This document shows positions 43,238-47,324 of a stretch of 64,000 bases of DNA, one piece after another (positions within the stretch are counted from its first letter, which is position 1; each line of letters starts with the position of its first letter). Below the pieces are notes generated by a model. That model was not told where the DNA came from. It searched no databases and was given only the letters and a program-made list of their open reading frames with translations. The position numbers and the translations under genes were made by a program. The DNA lies in the NCBI RefSeq assembly GCF_055900595.2, contig NZ_CM148325.1. One strand, given 5' to 3'.

Positions 43238-43711
43238 ATGAACCGGTTTATTATTGCGGATGCGACGAAATGTATCGGTTGCCGTACCTGTGAAGTGGCT
43301 TGCGCAGTGTCGCATCAGGAGAATCAGGATTGCGCTGCGTTGTCACCCGGTGAGTTTATTTCGCGTATTCGTGTCATTAAAGATCATACTTACACCACGG
43401 CAGTAGCCTGTCATCAGTGTGAAGATGCACCGTGCGCAAATGTGTGCCCTGTTGACGCGATAAGTCGCGAACATGGGCATATTTTCGTTGAACAATCACG
43501 TTGTATTGGCTGTAAAAGCTGTATGCTGGCTTGCCCGTTTGGTGCGATGGAGGTCGTTTCTTCACGCACAAAGGCGAGGGCGATTAAGTGCGATCTGTGC
43601 TGGCATCGGGCGACGGGACCGGCTTGTGTTGAAGCTTGCCCAACACAAGCGTTGCAATGCATGGATGTCGAGAAAGTGCAGCGGCATCGGCTACGGCAGC
43701 AGTCTGTTTGA
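43238..43711 (+). CDS. ysaA: 4Fe-4S ferredoxin-type protein
   Basis: ORF 43232..43711; start taken at MNRFIIADATKCIGCRTCEVAC; several CxxCxxCxxxCP motifs. Confidence 0.85.
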   Translation: MNRFIIADATKCIGCRTCEVACAVSHQENQDCAALSPGEFISRIRVIKDHTYTTAVACHQCEDAPCANVCPVDAISREHGHIFVEQSRCIGCKSCMLACPFGAMEVVSSRTKARAIKCDLCWHRATGPACVEACPTQALQCMDVEKVQRHRLRQQSV

Positions 43712-43759
43712 AACGTTTTTCCGGCGTTTTTTAACGCAGGAATAGTGCGCTTTGTTTAT

Positions 43760-43860
43760 GCCGGATGCGGCTTAAACGCCTTATCCGGCCTACAAATTAT
43801 TCCAAATTCAATATATTGCAGAAATGATGTAGGCCTGATAAGCGTAGCGCATCAGGCAAT
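43760..43860. repeat. REP element pair between ysaA and avtA
   Basis: gccggatgcggcttaaacgccttatccggcctaca ... tgtaggcctgataagcgtagcgcatcaggca. Confidence 0.8.
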
Positions 43861-43862
43861 TT

Positions 43863-45116
43863 TTAATGACTTTCAGCCCAGGCGCGTTCAATCTCTTCCG
43901 CCAGAATCTTCACCCCCGCTTCAATTTTATCCGGCTCCGGCACGTAGTTCATACGCATACATTGATGTGTATGTGGCCACGGTTTATCCAGCTCTGGGAA
44001 GAAGTTGTGCCCCGGCACCATCAGCACGCCCCGTGCTTTCAGGCGCTGGTAGAGCTGCTCGGTCGTAATTGGCAAATCCTTAAACCATAGCCAGAGGAAA
44101 ATGGCTCCTTCCGGTTTATGAATCAGGCAGCGATCTTCCGGTAAATAGCGGCGAATGATAGCGATAGTTTCCTGAACACGTTGGTAGTAAAACGGTTTGA
44201 TGACTGTTTCAGACAGGCGCAGCAGATCGTTACGCTTAATCATTTCACACATCATCGCTGGACCAATACCGCCAGGTGCCAGGCTGATAATGCCGTTCAT
44301 ATTGGTGATGGCGGTGATGATTTTTTCATTGGCGATGATAATGCCGCAGCGGGAGCCTGGTAGACCCAGCTTGGAAAGACTCATGCACAGTACGATATTC
44401 GGATTCCACAGCGGGCGCGCTTCGCTGAAGATGATACCCGGGAATGGGACGCCATAAGCGTTATCAATCACCAGCGGAATGCCGTGTTGATTCGCCAGCG
44501 CGTCAAGCTTCAGCAACTCTTCGTCAGTAATCACATTGCCTGTTGGATTCGTCGGCCGGGAGACGCAAATCATCCCGGTTTCTTCGCCAATATGCAGATG
44601 CTCAAAATCGACGTGGTATTTAAACTGGCCTTCCGGCAGCAGTTCAATATTCGGACGCGCAGAGACAAACAGATCTTCTTCCAGTCCGGCGTCAGCGTAG
44701 CCAATGTATTCCGGTGCCAGCGGAAACAGCACTTTTTTGATCCGACCATCTGCACGGCGTCCGGCGAACAGATTAAATAAGTAGAAAAACGCGCTCTGGC
44801 TGCCGTTTGTTAGTGCAATATTCTGTGGTTCGATATCCCAACCCAACTTCTCGCGTAGCATTCCGGCAAGCAGTGTGAGTAGCTCCGTTTTCCCCTGTGG
44901 ACCGTCGTAATTGCACAGTGCATCAGTCGCTTTGCCACTTTCCAGCATGTCGGTCAGTAGCGTCTGGAAGTAGTCCTGCATTTCCGGGATCTGCGCTGGA
45001 TTACCGCCGCCGAGCATAATCGCGCCAGGCGTGCGTAAACCGTCGTTCAGATCTTCCATCAGCAGCGTAATGCCGGAGTGGCGGGTAAATTTGTCACCAA
45101 AAAGGGAGAATGTCAT
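43863..45116 (-). CDS. avtA: Valine-pyruvate aminotransferase
   Basis: ORF 43863..45221; start taken at MTFSLFGDKFTRHSGI (417 aa). Confidence 0.9.
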   Translation of the reverse strand: MTFSLFGDKFTRHSGITLLMEDLNDGLRTPGAIMLGGGNPAQIPEMQDYFQTLLTDMLESGKATDALCNYDGPQGKTELLTLLAGMLREKLGWDIEPQNIALTNGSQSAFFYLFNLFAGRRADGRIKKVLFPLAPEYIGYADAGLEEDLFVSARPNIELLPEGQFKYHVDFEHLHIGEETGMICVSRPTNPTGNVITDEELLKLDALANQHGIPLVIDNAYGVPFPGIIFSEARPLWNPNIVLCMSLSKLGLPGSRCGIIIANEKIITAITNMNGIISLAPGGIGPAMMCEMIKRNDLLRLSETVIKPFYYQRVQETIAIIRRYLPEDRCLIHKPEGAIFLWLWFKDLPITTEQLYQRLKARGVLMVPGHNFFPELDKPWPHTHQCMRMNYVPEPDKIEAGVKILAEEIERAWAESH

Positions 45117-45254
45117 AGCGGGATATCTGTCGAACTCTGTAGCAAGGAAGGTAACAATAACGCTACATTTGCTGGGGTGCAAATCGCTCTGTTGAAGTGG
45201 GAGCGGTGCTTTATCCTGCAACGCTGATTAGGGCTGACATTTTATCCTGGTTGG

Positions 45255-45287
45255 CGGCTTCCCGAGGTACTGACGAACGGGAAGCCG
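45255..45287 (-). terminator. Hairpin immediately downstream of malS, no U-tract
   Basis: Perfect 10-bp inverted repeat cggcttcccg/cgggaagccg with a 13-nt loop, 7 bp after the malS stop. Confidence 0.35.
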
Positions 45288-45293
45288 GAAACG

Positions 45294-47324
45294 TTACTGT
45301 TGCCCCGCCCAGACGACCAGCACTTTATCGTCGTCATGCTCACGAACAAAGCCGTAGCCCTGCTTCAGCGAAAGTGTCGTTTGTTTGCCCGCGCCAATTG
45401 CGGGATGGCGGGCGCGGAACTGGCTGATTTTCTGCCAGTGCGCGACGCTGGCGGCAGATTTACCGCTAACATCCTGCCAGTTCATATCCGAACGCGTGCC
45501 TTGCAGTGGATCCGAACCGGTGGGGCCGAACGGACGCGAGGATTCATCACCATAAAAGATTTGTACTGCGCCTGGCGCTAATAACAATAACTCTGCTGCT
45601 TTGTCGCCCCCTTCACGGAACAGGCGGGTATCATGCGACGAGAGGTAGCTCAACACGTTGAAATCCTGCAATTTCTCTGCCATTTGCTGCCAGGTCGTAT
45701 CCATCTGCGCCAGACAATCGACCGCTTTCGCCGCCTGCTCCTGATAATCGAAATTGATCATCGCATCGAAGCCGTGGTGATAGTAGTCACTTTGCATCAC
45801 GCCGTGGCCCCAGGCTTCACCGATCATCCAGAAAGGTTTGTCATCTAATGCTTTGTCGGGATTCGCTTTTTTCCATTCGACAAGCGCGGCGCTGGCTTCG
45901 GTTTTCAGTTGCTGCCAGGCGGGCAACTCAACATGCTTGGCGGTATCGACCCGAAAACCATCAATTCCGTAGTCACGGACCCACTGGCTTAACCAATGGG
46001 TTAAGTAATCTCGAGGGGTAAAGCCGTCAATGGCTTTAGCGTGGGTATCCGTTTTGTTGTTATAGAACACTGGCAGGCCAGAAGCGGTCGTTGATTCGGT
46101 TTTGATATCCGGTAAAAAGGCCAGCGACATGGTGAGATCGTCAAATCCAGGATTGTCGTAGTCGCCGATATCCGTTCTGATCCAGTTTTTTCCCCACCAT
46201 TTATCCCAGCCTGTTTTGTCGCTGAAATTAATGTAATCGTTAAAGCTATGCCAGGTTTGCCCGGCGGCGGGCTTCCAGTCGCTCCAACGGTCACCTAACG
46301 TTTTTTTCACTTCGTCACCAGAAAGATATAACGCGCCAAACTGATACTCCTGCATATCCGCCAGTGTGGCATAGCCGGTGTGGTTCATCACGACATCAAA
46401 GAGAATACGAATACCGCGCTGATGCGCGCTATCAACCAGCGTCCGTAGATCGGCTTCGCTGCCCATATTGGCATCAAGATTCGTCCAGTCCTGTGTGTAA
46501 TAACCGTGGTAGGCATAATGCGGGAAATCGCCTTTTGTACCGCCGCCGACCCAGCCGTGAATTTGCTCAAATGGGGCACTTATCCATAAAGCATTGACGC
46601 CCAGCTGCTGGAGGTAATCCAGTTTGTTGGTCAGGCCGCGTAAATCGCCGCCGTGAAAAGTGCCAATTTCTGCCATATCGTCTTTATGACGTCCGTAACT
46701 CTGGTCATTACTGGGATCGCCGTTTTCGAAACGATCTGTCAGCACAAAGTAAACCGTAGCGTTATGCCAGTCGAAAGGGGCGGATGTGTCAGTTTCTGCC
46801 CGTTCCAGCAGGAGTAAACCGTTGCTGGTGGCAGCGGGTTGTAACGTTATTTGACCGTTCTTCACTATCGCAATTTGCTGGCTGTAATAATCCCGGACTG
46901 CGGCTCCCTCCGGAAAAGTGGCGCTGACATCCAGTGTGAGCGGTAATCCATCCCATTTCGGGCATTCACGGACCAGGCTTGCTACCGGTTCGACGGCGTT
47001 CTGGATGGAAATCATCAATGTTGGTGTACCGGAGCGGGTGTCTAGTTGCAGCGTATATTCGCCGTCCCTGAACAATCGCCATTGAGGTGGCGTGTTGCTA
47101 CAAGGTTGCAGGGAAAGCATCTGATTGAGTTTTATCGCATCCGCAGGCTGCCAGCACTGTTGGTCAAAATTTAGCGTTAGTGGACGCGTACCTTTGGGCA
47201 ACTGCGCGTGGCTGACAAATGTTCCCGTTCCCTGTTCGCTAAAGGCAGGGAACCCCGGAGAAGTCCAGCTGGCGGCAACGGCGAAGCCAGGAAGGAGTGT
47301 CAGAAAACAGGCGGCGAGTTTCAT
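45294..47324 (-). CDS. malS: Periplasmic alpha-amylase
   Basis: 676-aa ORF with signal peptide and GH13 motifs. Confidence 0.93.
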   Translation of the reverse strand: MKLAACFLTLLPGFAVAASWTSPGFPAFSEQGTGTFVSHAQLPKGTRPLTLNFDQQCWQPADAIKLNQMLSLQPCSNTPPQWRLFRDGEYTLQLDTRSGTPTLMISIQNAVEPVASLVRECPKWDGLPLTLDVSATFPEGAAVRDYYSQQIAIVKNGQITLQPAATSNGLLLLERAETDTSAPFDWHNATVYFVLTDRFENGDPSNDQSYGRHKDDMAEIGTFHGGDLRGLTNKLDYLQQLGVNALWISAPFEQIHGWVGGGTKGDFPHYAYHGYYTQDWTNLDANMGSEADLRTLVDSAHQRGIRILFDVVMNHTGYATLADMQEYQFGALYLSGDEVKKTLGDRWSDWKPAAGQTWHSFNDYINFSDKTGWDKWWGKNWIRTDIGDYDNPGFDDLTMSLAFLPDIKTESTTASGLPVFYNNKTDTHAKAIDGFTPRDYLTHWLSQWVRDYGIDGFRVDTAKHVELPAWQQLKTEASAALVEWKKANPDKALDDKPFWMIGEAWGHGVMQSDYYHHGFDAMINFDYQEQAAKAVDCLAQMDTTWQQMAEKLQDFNVLSYLSSHDTRLFREGGDKAAELLLLAPGAVQIFYGDESSRPFGPTGSDPLQGTRSDMNWQDVSGKSAASVAHWQKISQFRARHPAIGAGKQTTLSLKQGYGFVREHDDDKVLVVWAGQQ

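What the first reader, a model, noticed from the sequence alone, without database searches (positions are those of the whole stretch)
45255..45287. Perfect 10-bp-stem hairpin just after malS, with no U-tract
The inverted repeat cggcttcccg/cgggaagccg lies 7 bp beyond the malS stop, between convergent malS and the avtA start region. With no U-run on either strand it is more likely an RNA 3'-end stabiliser or processing site than a classical intrinsic terminator.
Basis: seen in the sequence. Interest (0 to 1): 0.2.

Follow-up and report, generated by a model that had tools for sequence, protein, structure and literature searches.

The report
U-less hairpin ending malS mRNA
A real, evolutionarily maintained RNA hairpin sits just after the E. 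coli amylase gene malS; it lacks the U-run of a classical terminator and most likely caps and protects the end of the malS message, which makes it an ordinary example of a known class.

Summary
The hairpin is real: CGGCTTCCCG / 13-nt loop / CGGGAAGCCG at 45255-45287. It starts 6 nt after the malS stop codon and has no U-run on either strand.

malS and avtA are tandem on the minus strand, not convergent. The hairpin lies in the 177-nt spacer, upstream of a conserved block that looks like the avtA promoter.

- **Conservation.** About 80 Enterobacteriaceae malS loci were compared. A GC-rich hairpin occupies this position in 78% of them, against 2.5% of shuffles. Stem sequences differ but pairing is kept.
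- **Covariation.** In Escherichia, Citrobacter and Salmonella, 91% of cells pair and 7 of 10 pairs show compensatory double changes. Slid controls pair at 29-52%.
- **Strand.** G·U wobbles favour the malS sense strand, which points to an RNA structure.
- **U-tract.** It varies between species. Only 9 species, all Klebsiella, Raoultella or Kluyvera relatives, score as intrinsic terminators. E. coli scores lowest.

The best reading is the known class of U-less 3' stem-loops that block exonucleases after Rho-dependent termination downstream. No 3'-end data for malS could be found, because malS is absent from the available Term-seq tables. The mechanism is therefore inferred. Interest is low.

The parts
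45294..47324 (-). malS coding sequence (periplasmic alpha-amylase, 676 aa); stop codon TAA at 45296-45294
   Evidence: ORF list. RefSeq annotation of near-identical E. coli records and of K-12.
45288..45293 (-). 6-nt linker (CGUUUC) between the malS stop codon and the stem; varies within E. coli (CUUUUC, UUUUUC)
   Evidence: Sequence; E. coli alignment.
45278..45287 (-). 5' arm of the RNA hairpin (CGGCUUCCCG as transcribed)
   Evidence: Pairing conserved with compensatory changes.
45265..45277 (-). 13-nt loop (UUCGUCAGUACCU). Sequence and length vary between species; in Citrobacter and other Escherichia species the stem extends into it
45255..45264 (-). 3' arm of the RNA hairpin (CGGGAAGCCG); predicted mature 3' end of malS mRNA lies at or just beyond 45255
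   Evidence: The 3'-end position is inferred from the class described, not measured.
45117..45254 (-). Untranslated spacer downstream of the hairpin. It is C-rich and G-poor (24 C / 15 G per 78 nt) and is the candidate Rho loading region. It also carries the avtA upstream elements listed below
   Evidence: 90th-95th percentile of all 78-nt windows in the 64 kb. Caveat: C>G is also present in species with a T-tract.
45241..45249 (-). Box A, CAGGATAAA, 5 nt after the stem; conserved as yCAGrATAAA across genera; function unknown
45210..45218 (-). Box B, second CAGGATAAA, 31 nt after box A; conserved as GCAGsAyAAA; function unknown
45150..45185 (-). Near-invariant block GATTTGCACC...TAGCGTTATTGTTACC (TTGCAC-17 nt-TATTGT); probable avtA promoter, downstream of the hairpin
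   Evidence: Conservation profile over 56 spacers. It was not called by the strict consensus scan, so the promoter assignment is inference.
43863..45116 (-). avtA coding sequence (valine-pyruvate aminotransferase, 417 aa), same strand as malS

Best explanation
The inverted repeat encodes an RNA stem-loop in the 3' untranslated end of the malS transcript. It is not a factor-independent terminator.

Proposed mechanism: RNA polymerase reads through the hairpin into the C-rich, G-poor untranslated spacer before avtA. Rho loads there and terminates diffusely, in the spacer or early avtA. The 3'-to-5' exonucleases PNPase and RNase II then trim the tail back to the base of the stem. The stem blocks them, which fixes and stabilises the mature malS 3' end about 40 nt after the stop codon. 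A side effect is that maltose-induced malS transcription is kept from running over the separately regulated avtA promoter.

**Shown here:**
- The hairpin exists.
- It is maintained by compensatory evolution on the sense strand.
- It has no U-tract.
- No other intrinsic terminator lies between malS and avtA.
- The downstream RNA is C>G.

**Inferred:**
- Rho termination downstream.
- Exonuclease trimming back to the stem.
- Stabilisation of the message.
For: **Structure under selection.**
- 78% of 79 Enterobacteriaceae malS loci carry at least 8 contiguous bp closed by G-C within about 45 nt of the stop, against 2.5% of shuffles.
- In an unfitted MAFFT alignment of 21 Escherichia, Citrobacter and Salmonella sequences, the 10-bp stem pairs in 91.4% of cells. 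Seven of 10 pairs have double changes. The covariation score is 0.394 against 0.152 in shuffles (0 of 500 reach it). Slid controls pair at 29-52%.
- RNAalifold recovers the same helix.

**Sense-strand RNA.**
- 23 G·U cells against 10 A·C cells in stems over 69 loci.
- The C-G, U·G, U-A series at one pair looks like a stepwise compensatory path.
- Two E. coli stem polymorphisms both give sense-strand G·U.

**Not intrinsic.**
- 0 U in the 8-nt tail.
- The scan finds no terminator in 44900-45600.
- The d'Aubenton-Carafa-type score is -63, the second lowest of 70 loci and the lowest of any locus with a real stem.

**Downstream composition.** C>G at the 90th-95th percentile of the window.

**The class is documented.** Dar & Sorek 2018 (PMC6061677) found that Rho-dependent E. 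coli transcripts end just after stable stem-loops. These lack U-rich tails, have mild C>G downstream, and are trimmed by PNPase and RNase II.

**Local precedent.** For the next gene, avtA, Adams 2021 Term-seq lists a 3' end at K-12 3741106(+), 13 nt after a U-poor hairpin. It also lists a Rho termination region 277 nt further on, at 3741383 (score 6.9, p 2.8e-23).
Against: - No 3' end, bicyclomycin effect or half-life measurement exists for malS in any source I could read. Adams 2021 lists no 3' end between K-12 3737166 and 3741106 and no Rho region in the malS-avtA spacer. This is probably because malS was not induced, but it is still absence of support.
- C>G downstream is not specific. It is equally present in species whose hairpin has a T-tract (Spearman rho -0.18, p 0.18), and the spacer also serves as avtA upstream DNA.
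- Only 138 nt separate the hairpin from the avtA start codon. That is short, though not prohibitive, for Rho loading and release.
- The covariation counts are not corrected for phylogeny.
Confidence: 0.58

Rival explanations
1. Weak or factor-assisted hairpin terminator. The stem-loop itself makes RNA polymerase pause and release without a U-tract, perhaps with help from NusA or NusG. The 3' end would then be made by termination, not by trimming.
For: - The hairpin is positionally equivalent to hairpins that do have TTTT-TTTTTT tails and score as intrinsic terminators in Kluyvera, Klebsiella and Raoultella.
Against: - The tail is CCAACCAG, with no U and a G/C-rich hybrid. That is the opposite of the weak rU:dA hybrid that intrinsic release needs, by established mechanism.
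- The loop is 13 nt.
- The score is far below threshold.
- Most species (about 60 of 70) keep the hairpin without a usable T-tract. Selection on the hairpin therefore does not depend on intrinsic termination.
Confidence: 0.15
2. Intercistronic stabiliser or processing boundary without dedicated termination. malS transcripts read through into avtA. After endonucleolytic cleavage downstream, the hairpin protects the upstream malS segment. This would resemble the REP hairpins between malE and malF.
For: - There is no intrinsic terminator between malS and avtA.
- The tandem gene order and the spacer of about 175 nt are conserved in about 70 species.
- The hairpin is conserved regardless of T-tract.
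Against: - avtA has its own strongly conserved promoter-like block downstream of the hairpin.
- By established knowledge, avtA is regulated differently from malS, which depends on MalT.
- No co-transcript is reported in the tables searched.
- This reading shares the exonuclease-barrier step with the best explanation and differs only in how the downstream end arises.
Confidence: 0.12
3. The element belongs to avtA rather than to malS. It would be either a leader-RNA structure from a promoter inside the end of malS, or a palindromic DNA operator for an avtA regulator.
For: It lies 139-171 nt upstream of the avtA start codon, next to two conserved CAGGATAAA boxes that look like DNA sites.
Against: - The half-site sequence is not conserved while pairing is. 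That pattern fits an RNA helix and not a protein operator.
- The hairpin keeps a fixed short distance from the malS stop (gap 5-15 nt in most species).
- The conserved promoter-like block lies downstream of it.
- No promoter-like site lies upstream of it.
Confidence: 0.05
4. A member of a dispersed repeat family (REP/BIME-like), or a chance palindrome with no function.
For: In Enterobacter, Lelliottia, Buttiauxella and Cedecea, the same position is occupied by palindromic units that look like dispersed repeats. About one perfect 10-bp inverted repeat per 64 kb is expected by chance.
Against: - It is unique in the window.
- It occurs at exactly one place per genome in 5421 of 5426 E. coli genomes.
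- No repeat feature is listed at this spot in the K-12 feature table returned.
- There is no Rfam match.
- It is conserved with compensatory changes across genera.
Confidence: 0.02

Closest known systems
Protective 3' stem-loops of Rho-dependent E. coli transcripts (Dar & Sorek 2018, NAR 46:6797, PMC6061677; idea from Peters et al. 2012)
   Same: - A stable GC-rich stem-loop just after the coding region.
- No U-rich tail.
- No A-tract upstream.
- Mild C>G downstream.
- Folding energy in the range of intrinsic-terminator hairpins.

   Different: - No mapped 3' end, bicyclomycin sensitivity or exonuclease dependence is available for malS.
- The loop (13 nt) is long.
- The candidate Rho loading region is short and doubles as avtA upstream DNA.
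Intrinsic (Rho-independent) terminators
   Same: A GC-rich hairpin immediately after a stop codon. The orthologous hairpins in Kluyvera, Klebsiella and Raoultella carry 4-6 T and score as intrinsic terminators.
   Different: The E. coli element has 0 U in the 8 nt after the stem and a 13-nt loop. It fails the consensus scan and the discriminant score.
REP/BIME hairpins as mRNA 3' stabilisers (for example the malE-malF intergenic REPs; from my own knowledge, Newbury et al. 1987)
   Same: The proposed action is the same: a stem-loop that blocks 3'-to-5' exonucleases and stabilises the upstream message in a mal-regulon transcript. In several genera, repeat-type palindromes occupy exactly this post-malS position.
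   Different: The E. coli hairpin is single-copy and unrelated in sequence to REP. No REP is listed here in the K-12 feature table returned.
avtA 3' end in the same window (Adams et al. 2021, eLife 10:e62438, PMC7815308, supplementary files 1 and 2)
   Same: A U-poor hairpin with a Term-seq 3' end 13 nt after it, and a significant Rho termination region 277 nt downstream. This is the arrangement proposed for malS.
   Different: It is a different sequence, preceded by two REP-like units. For avtA the 3' end and the Rho dependence are measured; for malS they are not.

Membership tests
Intrinsic (Rho-independent) terminator | GC-rich stem-loop directly downstream of the gene | tested here: met
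   10 perfect bp, 8 of them G-C, -18.3 to -20.6 kcal/mol, 6 nt after the stop codon.
Intrinsic (Rho-independent) terminator | U-rich tract of about 7-8 nt immediately 3' of the stem | tested here: not met
   The tail is CCAACCAG, 0 U of 8. The T-tail score is 0.01 and the discriminant score is -63 (formula recalled from d'Aubenton-Carafa 1990). The scan finds no terminator.
Intrinsic (Rho-independent) terminator | Short loop (typically 3-8 nt) | tested here: not met
   The loop is 13 nt with no stable internal pairing in E. coli.
Intrinsic (Rho-independent) terminator | Factor-independent release of RNA polymerase in vitro | not testable with these tools
   Needs in vitro transcription.
Protective 3' stem-loop of a Rho-dependent transcript (Dar & Sorek class) | Stable stem-loop not followed by a U-rich sequence, at the end of a transcription unit | tested here: met
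   No other terminator lies before avtA.
Protective 3' stem-loop of a Rho-dependent transcript (Dar & Sorek class) | C-over-G enrichment (rut-like RNA) downstream of the stem-loop | tested here: inconclusive
   24 C against 15 G per 78 nt, at the 90th-95th percentile of the window. The same skew occurs in species with T-tracts, and the region also holds avtA promoter DNA.
Protective 3' stem-loop of a Rho-dependent transcript (Dar & Sorek class) | Steady-state RNA 3' end mapped immediately after the stem | not testable with these tools
   No malS row appears in the uncut Adams 2021 tables or in the SMRT-Cappable-seq tables. Other mal-regulon genes are absent too, so the conditions were uninformative.
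Protective 3' stem-loop of a Rho-dependent transcript (Dar & Sorek class) | Read-through increases when Rho is inhibited; tails lengthen in pnp or rnb mutants | not testable with these tools
   The supplements of Peters 2009/2012, Dar & Sorek, Nadiras 2018 and Helicase-SELEX are not held.
REP/BIME dispersed palindromes | Many copies per genome sharing a consensus | tested here: not met
   One copy in the window. One place per genome in 5421 of 5426 E. coli genomes. No repeat feature in the K-12 feature table returned.
Palindromic DNA operator of a transcription factor | Conserved half-site sequence across species | tested here: not met
   Stem sequences differ between species while complementarity is kept. 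Seven of 10 pairs show double changes.
Curated RNA family (Rfam 15) | Match to a covariance model at or near the gathering score | tested here: not met
   The only overlapping hit is mir-129 at 17.3 bits against a gathering score of 48.6, E = 1.4. This is noise.

The most novel reading that the evidence does not exclude
The post-malS hairpin is one orthologous 3'-end element whose stem has been held by compensatory evolution across Enterobacteriaceae. Its U-tract, in contrast, has come and gone. On this reading the same site works as an intrinsic terminator in Kluyvera, Klebsiella and Raoultella, and as a Rho-dependent, exonuclease-trimmed end in Escherichia and most Citrobacter. That would make it a natural, testable case of the switching between termination modes that Dar & Sorek proposed.
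Probability: 0.4. Interest if true: 0.35.

Novelty: new member of a known kind. Interest (0 to 1): 0.15.

Why it matters
The finding matters little on its own. It assigns a plausible 3' end to the malS message. It also explains how a maltose-induced gene is separated from the differently regulated avtA gene 177 nt downstream, even though no classical terminator lies between them.

The comparative picture is modestly useful. It gives a clean single-locus example in which the hairpin is conserved by compensatory change across about 70 species while the U-tract is not. That supports the view that, at this site, the stem-loop is the selected part. It also offers matched natural variants (0 to 6 T after equivalent stems) for testing how easily a site moves between intrinsic and Rho-dependent termination.

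Tried and rejected
**Direct 3'-end or Rho evidence for malS: nothing found.**
- Adams 2021 supplements (complete, four files): no malS or avtA row, and no coordinate in 3737167-3741105.
- SMRT-Cappable-seq 2018 supplements: nothing.
- Supplements not held: Dar & Sorek 2018, Conway 2014, Nadiras 2018, Helicase-SELEX 2022.
- Peters 2009 and 2012 are not held at all.
- Full-text searches for malS with avtA, or malS with terminator, gave nothing relevant.

**Other checks that led nowhere or were rejected.**
- Rfam search of 44900-45600 at E up to 10: only noise.
- Canonical terminator or promoter scan: none in 44900-45600.
- Repeat-family idea: rejected, because the element is single-copy.
- A CsrA reading of the GGA motifs in the two CAGGATAAA boxes: rejected. 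The GGA is not conserved; other genera have CAGAATAAA or CAGCATAAA.
- Test of whether loss of the T-tract goes with a stronger C>G skew downstream, which would be specific support for Rho: weak and not significant (rho -0.18, p 0.18).
- A first hairpin finder that minimised energy absorbed T-tracts into A-U extensions of the stem. I replaced it with G-C-closed cores.
- I looked for a citable source that Lrp regulates avtA. The paper opened did not say so, so that idea remains my recollection only.

Full report
**Observation.** The + strand of the window reads CGGCTTCCCG (45255-45264), a 13-nt spacer (45265-45277) and CGGGAAGCCG (45278-45287). This is a perfect 10-bp inverted repeat.
- The 676-aa ORF at 45294..47324 on the minus strand is malS, and the 417-aa ORF at 43863..45116 on the same strand is avtA. 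This follows from the ORF list and from the RefSeq annotation of near-identical E. coli records and of K-12.
malS and avtA are tandem, and the hairpin lies at the malS-proximal end of a 177-nt spacer.
- The transcribed RNA is UAA-CGUUUC-CGGCUUCCCG-UUCGUCAGUACCU-CGGGAAGCCG-CCAACCAGGAUAAAAUG. There is no U among the 8 nt after the stem, and the opposite strand has no U-run either.
- The hairpin folds at -20.6 kcal/mol (z = -3.4) and persists when 131 nt of context are folded.

**Chance, repeats and known families.**
- The exact pattern occurs once in the window and in none of 100 shuffles.
- Perfect 10-bp inverted repeats with 3-20 nt loops give 26 overlapping hits (about 12 sites) in the window, against 1.25 hits per dinucleotide shuffle. 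Such palindromes are enriched overall, although a single one could arise by chance.
- The element sits at one place per genome in 5421 of 5426 complete E. coli genomes, always after malS.
- No repeat feature is listed at this spot in the K-12 feature table returned, and nothing credible matches in Rfam.
- It is therefore not a REP-type repeat and not a curated RNA family.

**Not a classical intrinsic terminator.**
- The consensus scan finds no terminator-like site on either strand in 44900-45600.
- I used G-C-closed stem cores and the d'Aubenton-Carafa tail score and discriminant. The formula is recalled from memory and modern folding energies were used, so the values are approximate.
- The E. 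coli element has T = 0.01 and d = -63. That is the second lowest of 70 loci, and the lowest of any locus with a real stem.

**Comparative evidence.** A scan of species-representative genomes with the MalS protein returned 80 Enterobacteriaceae loci.
- malS is followed by avtA, with a spacer of about 150-250 nt, in nearly all of them.
- A G-C-closed stem of at least 8 contiguous bp lies within about 45 nt of the malS stop in 78% of 79 loci, against 2.5% of composition-matched shuffles.
- The stems differ in sequence:
  - GGCTTCCCG/CGGGAAGCC (Escherichia)
  - GGCTTCTCG/CGAGAAGC (C. gillenii, C. werkmanii)
  - GGGTTCTGACA/TGTCAGAACCC (three Citrobacter species)
  - GCTACCGGT/ACCGGTAGC (Salmonella)
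  - GGCTCCCC/GGGGAGCC (Klebsiella)
  - GGCCCG/CGGGCC (Kluyvera)
- In an unfitted MAFFT alignment of 21 Escherichia, Citrobacter and Salmonella sequences, the 10-bp stem pairs in 91.4% of cells.
  - Seven of 10 pairs carry double changes.
  - The covariation score is 0.394 against 0.152 in shuffles (0 of 500 reach it).
  - Versions with the 3' partner slid by 1-3 columns pair in only 29-52% of cells.
  - RNAalifold recovers the same helix on its own.
- These counts are not corrected for phylogeny, but at least six distinct stem haplotypes are involved.

**Which strand and which molecule.**
- Stems contain 23 G·U cells on the malS sense strand, against 10 A·C cells that would be G·U on the antisense strand (p = 0.035, not corrected for phylogeny).
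- One pair shows the series C-G (9), U·G (5), U-A (6), which looks like a stepwise compensatory path.
- Among eight E. coli strains, variation falls in the stop codon, the linker and the loop. The only two stem changes both create sense-strand G·U pairs.
- This points to selection on an RNA helix in the malS transcript, not on a DNA operator. An operator would conserve half-site sequence.

**The U-tract is labile while the hairpin is not.**
- The 8 nt after the stem hold 0-6 T across species.
- Only 9 of 70 species reach d >= 0. They are Kluyvera genomosp. 1, Kluyvera georgiana, Klebsiella indica, K. grimontii, K. spallanzanii, K. oxytoca, Raoultella planticola, and two unnamed relatives.
- Some Citrobacter have TTTA tails. 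All Escherichia have 0-1 T.
- In Enterobacter, Lelliottia, Leclercia and Buttiauxella, one to three palindromic units of the CCCTCTCCC...GGGAGAGGG type occupy the position. In Cedecea and Buttiauxella, units of the GCCGGATAAG type do so.
- Something that folds is therefore kept after malS almost everywhere, while a functional U-tract is the exception.
- I cannot say which state is ancestral.

**What lies downstream.** An alignment of 56 spacers shows a fixed order of elements:
- the hairpin;
- box A, yCAGrATAAA (window 45241-45249);
- box B, GCAGsAyAAA (45210-45218);
- a nearly invariant block GATTTGCACC...TAGCGTTATkGTTA (45150-45185, readable as TTGCAC-17-TATTGT);
- the avtA start codon.

The invariant block is probably the avtA promoter, so the hairpin belongs to the malS 3' end and not to an avtA leader. 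The spacer RNA is C-rich and G-poor (24 C / 15 G per 78 nt, at the 90th-95th percentile of all windows in the 64 kb), as expected for a Rho loading region. This skew is not specific, however. It is about as strong in species whose hairpin carries a T-tract.

**Literature.**
- Dar & Sorek 2018 mapped E. coli 3' ends. Transcripts that depend on Rho end precisely after stable stem-loops that lack U-rich tails and upstream A-tracts.
  - These stem-loops show mild C>G downstream.
  - They are produced by PNPase and RNase II trimming after diffuse termination further on.
  - The authors also proposed that sites could switch between modes by changing U content.
- A 2025 preprint generalises the association of stem-loops with both kinds of 3' end.
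- In the complete supplementary tables of Adams et al. 2021, no 3' end lies between K-12 3737166 and 3741106, and no Rho region lies in the malS-avtA spacer.
  - malS, malE, malG, malM and malZ are all absent from those tables. The growth conditions (LB and M63-glucose) therefore probably did not express malS.
- The same tables give a local precedent for the next gene.
  - avtA has a 3' end at 3741106(+), 13 nt after the U-poor hairpin TTCCGGCG...CGCCGGAA.
  - A significant Rho termination region lies at 3741383(+).
  - The corresponding window sequence is at about 43704-43742.

**Mechanism.** The most likely account (confidence 0.58) is as follows.
- The hairpin is the exonuclease barrier that defines and stabilises the malS mRNA 3' end.
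- Termination occurs by Rho in the untranslated C-rich spacer or early avtA.
- This also shields the avtA promoter from MalT-driven read-through.
- Shown: the structure, its selection on the sense strand, the absence of a U-tract, the absence of any other terminator, and the composition.
- Inferred: Rho action, trimming and stabilisation.

Rivals are:
- hairpin-dependent termination or pausing without a U-tract (0.15);
- a stabiliser of the upstream half of a read-through malS-avtA transcript (0.12);
- an avtA leader or operator (0.05);
- a repeat or a chance palindrome (0.02).

**Comparison and verdict.**
- The element works like, and probably belongs to, the Dar & Sorek class of U-less protective 3' stem-loops. 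Two of that class's defining features (a mapped 3' end and Rho/exonuclease dependence) could not be tested.
- It fails the defining U-tract test for intrinsic terminators and the copy-number test for REP elements.
- It is a new member of a known kind and of low interest (0.15).
- The one mildly novel angle is that orthologous hairpins with 0 to 6 T after equivalent stems offer a natural series for testing switches between termination modes.

Noticed in passing
window 45241-45249 and 45210-45218 (minus strand): Two exact copies of CAGGATAAA lie 31 nt apart, between the malS hairpin and the avtA promoter-like block. They are conserved as yCAGrATAAA and GCAGsAyAAA across about 50 Enterobacteriaceae spacers. 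They are probably DNA sites for an avtA regulator. Lrp is only my guess from memory, and the match to its consensus is poor.
   Followed up: partly
window 45150-45185 (minus strand): A nearly invariant block GATTTGCACC...TAGCGTTATTGTTACC, readable as TTGCAC-17 nt-TATTGT, is the most conserved part of the spacer across genera. It is probably the avtA promoter. The strict consensus scan did not call it.
   Followed up: partly
window ~43700-43860 (minus strand), downstream of avtA: Two REP-like palindromes (gcctgatgcgctacgcttatcaggcctac and gtaggccggataaggcgtttaagccgcatccggc) are followed by a U-poor hairpin at ~43719-43742. In K-12, Term-seq places the avtA 3' end 13 nt after that hairpin (3741106) and a Rho termination region 277 nt further on (3741383). 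In the window the hairpin carries a mismatch relative to K-12.
   Followed up: partly
L020, L021, L024-L030, L039, L045, L054, L072 (first 30-120 nt after the malS stop); L070, L075, L077: In Enterobacter, Lelliottia and Buttiauxella izardii, the unique hairpin is replaced by one to three palindromic units of the CCCTCTCCC-N-GGGAGAGGG / GGGTGAGGG type. In Cedecea and Buttiauxella agrestis it is replaced by GCCGGATAAG-type REP-like units. I did not verify their copy number in those genomes.
   Followed up: no
L034 (spacer 1688 nt), L073 (924 nt), L078 (560 nt); L066, L080 (no avtA after malS): A few species have insertions between malS and avtA, or have lost the adjacency. The contents of the insertions were not examined.
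   Followed up: no
window 45050-45400: This stretch is at least 99% identical to only 13 of 5423 E. coli genomes and 95-99% identical to almost all others. The window therefore comes from a minority E. coli lineage, close to strain 2013C-4282. E. coli strains also differ in the malS stop codon (TAA or TGA).
   Followed up: no
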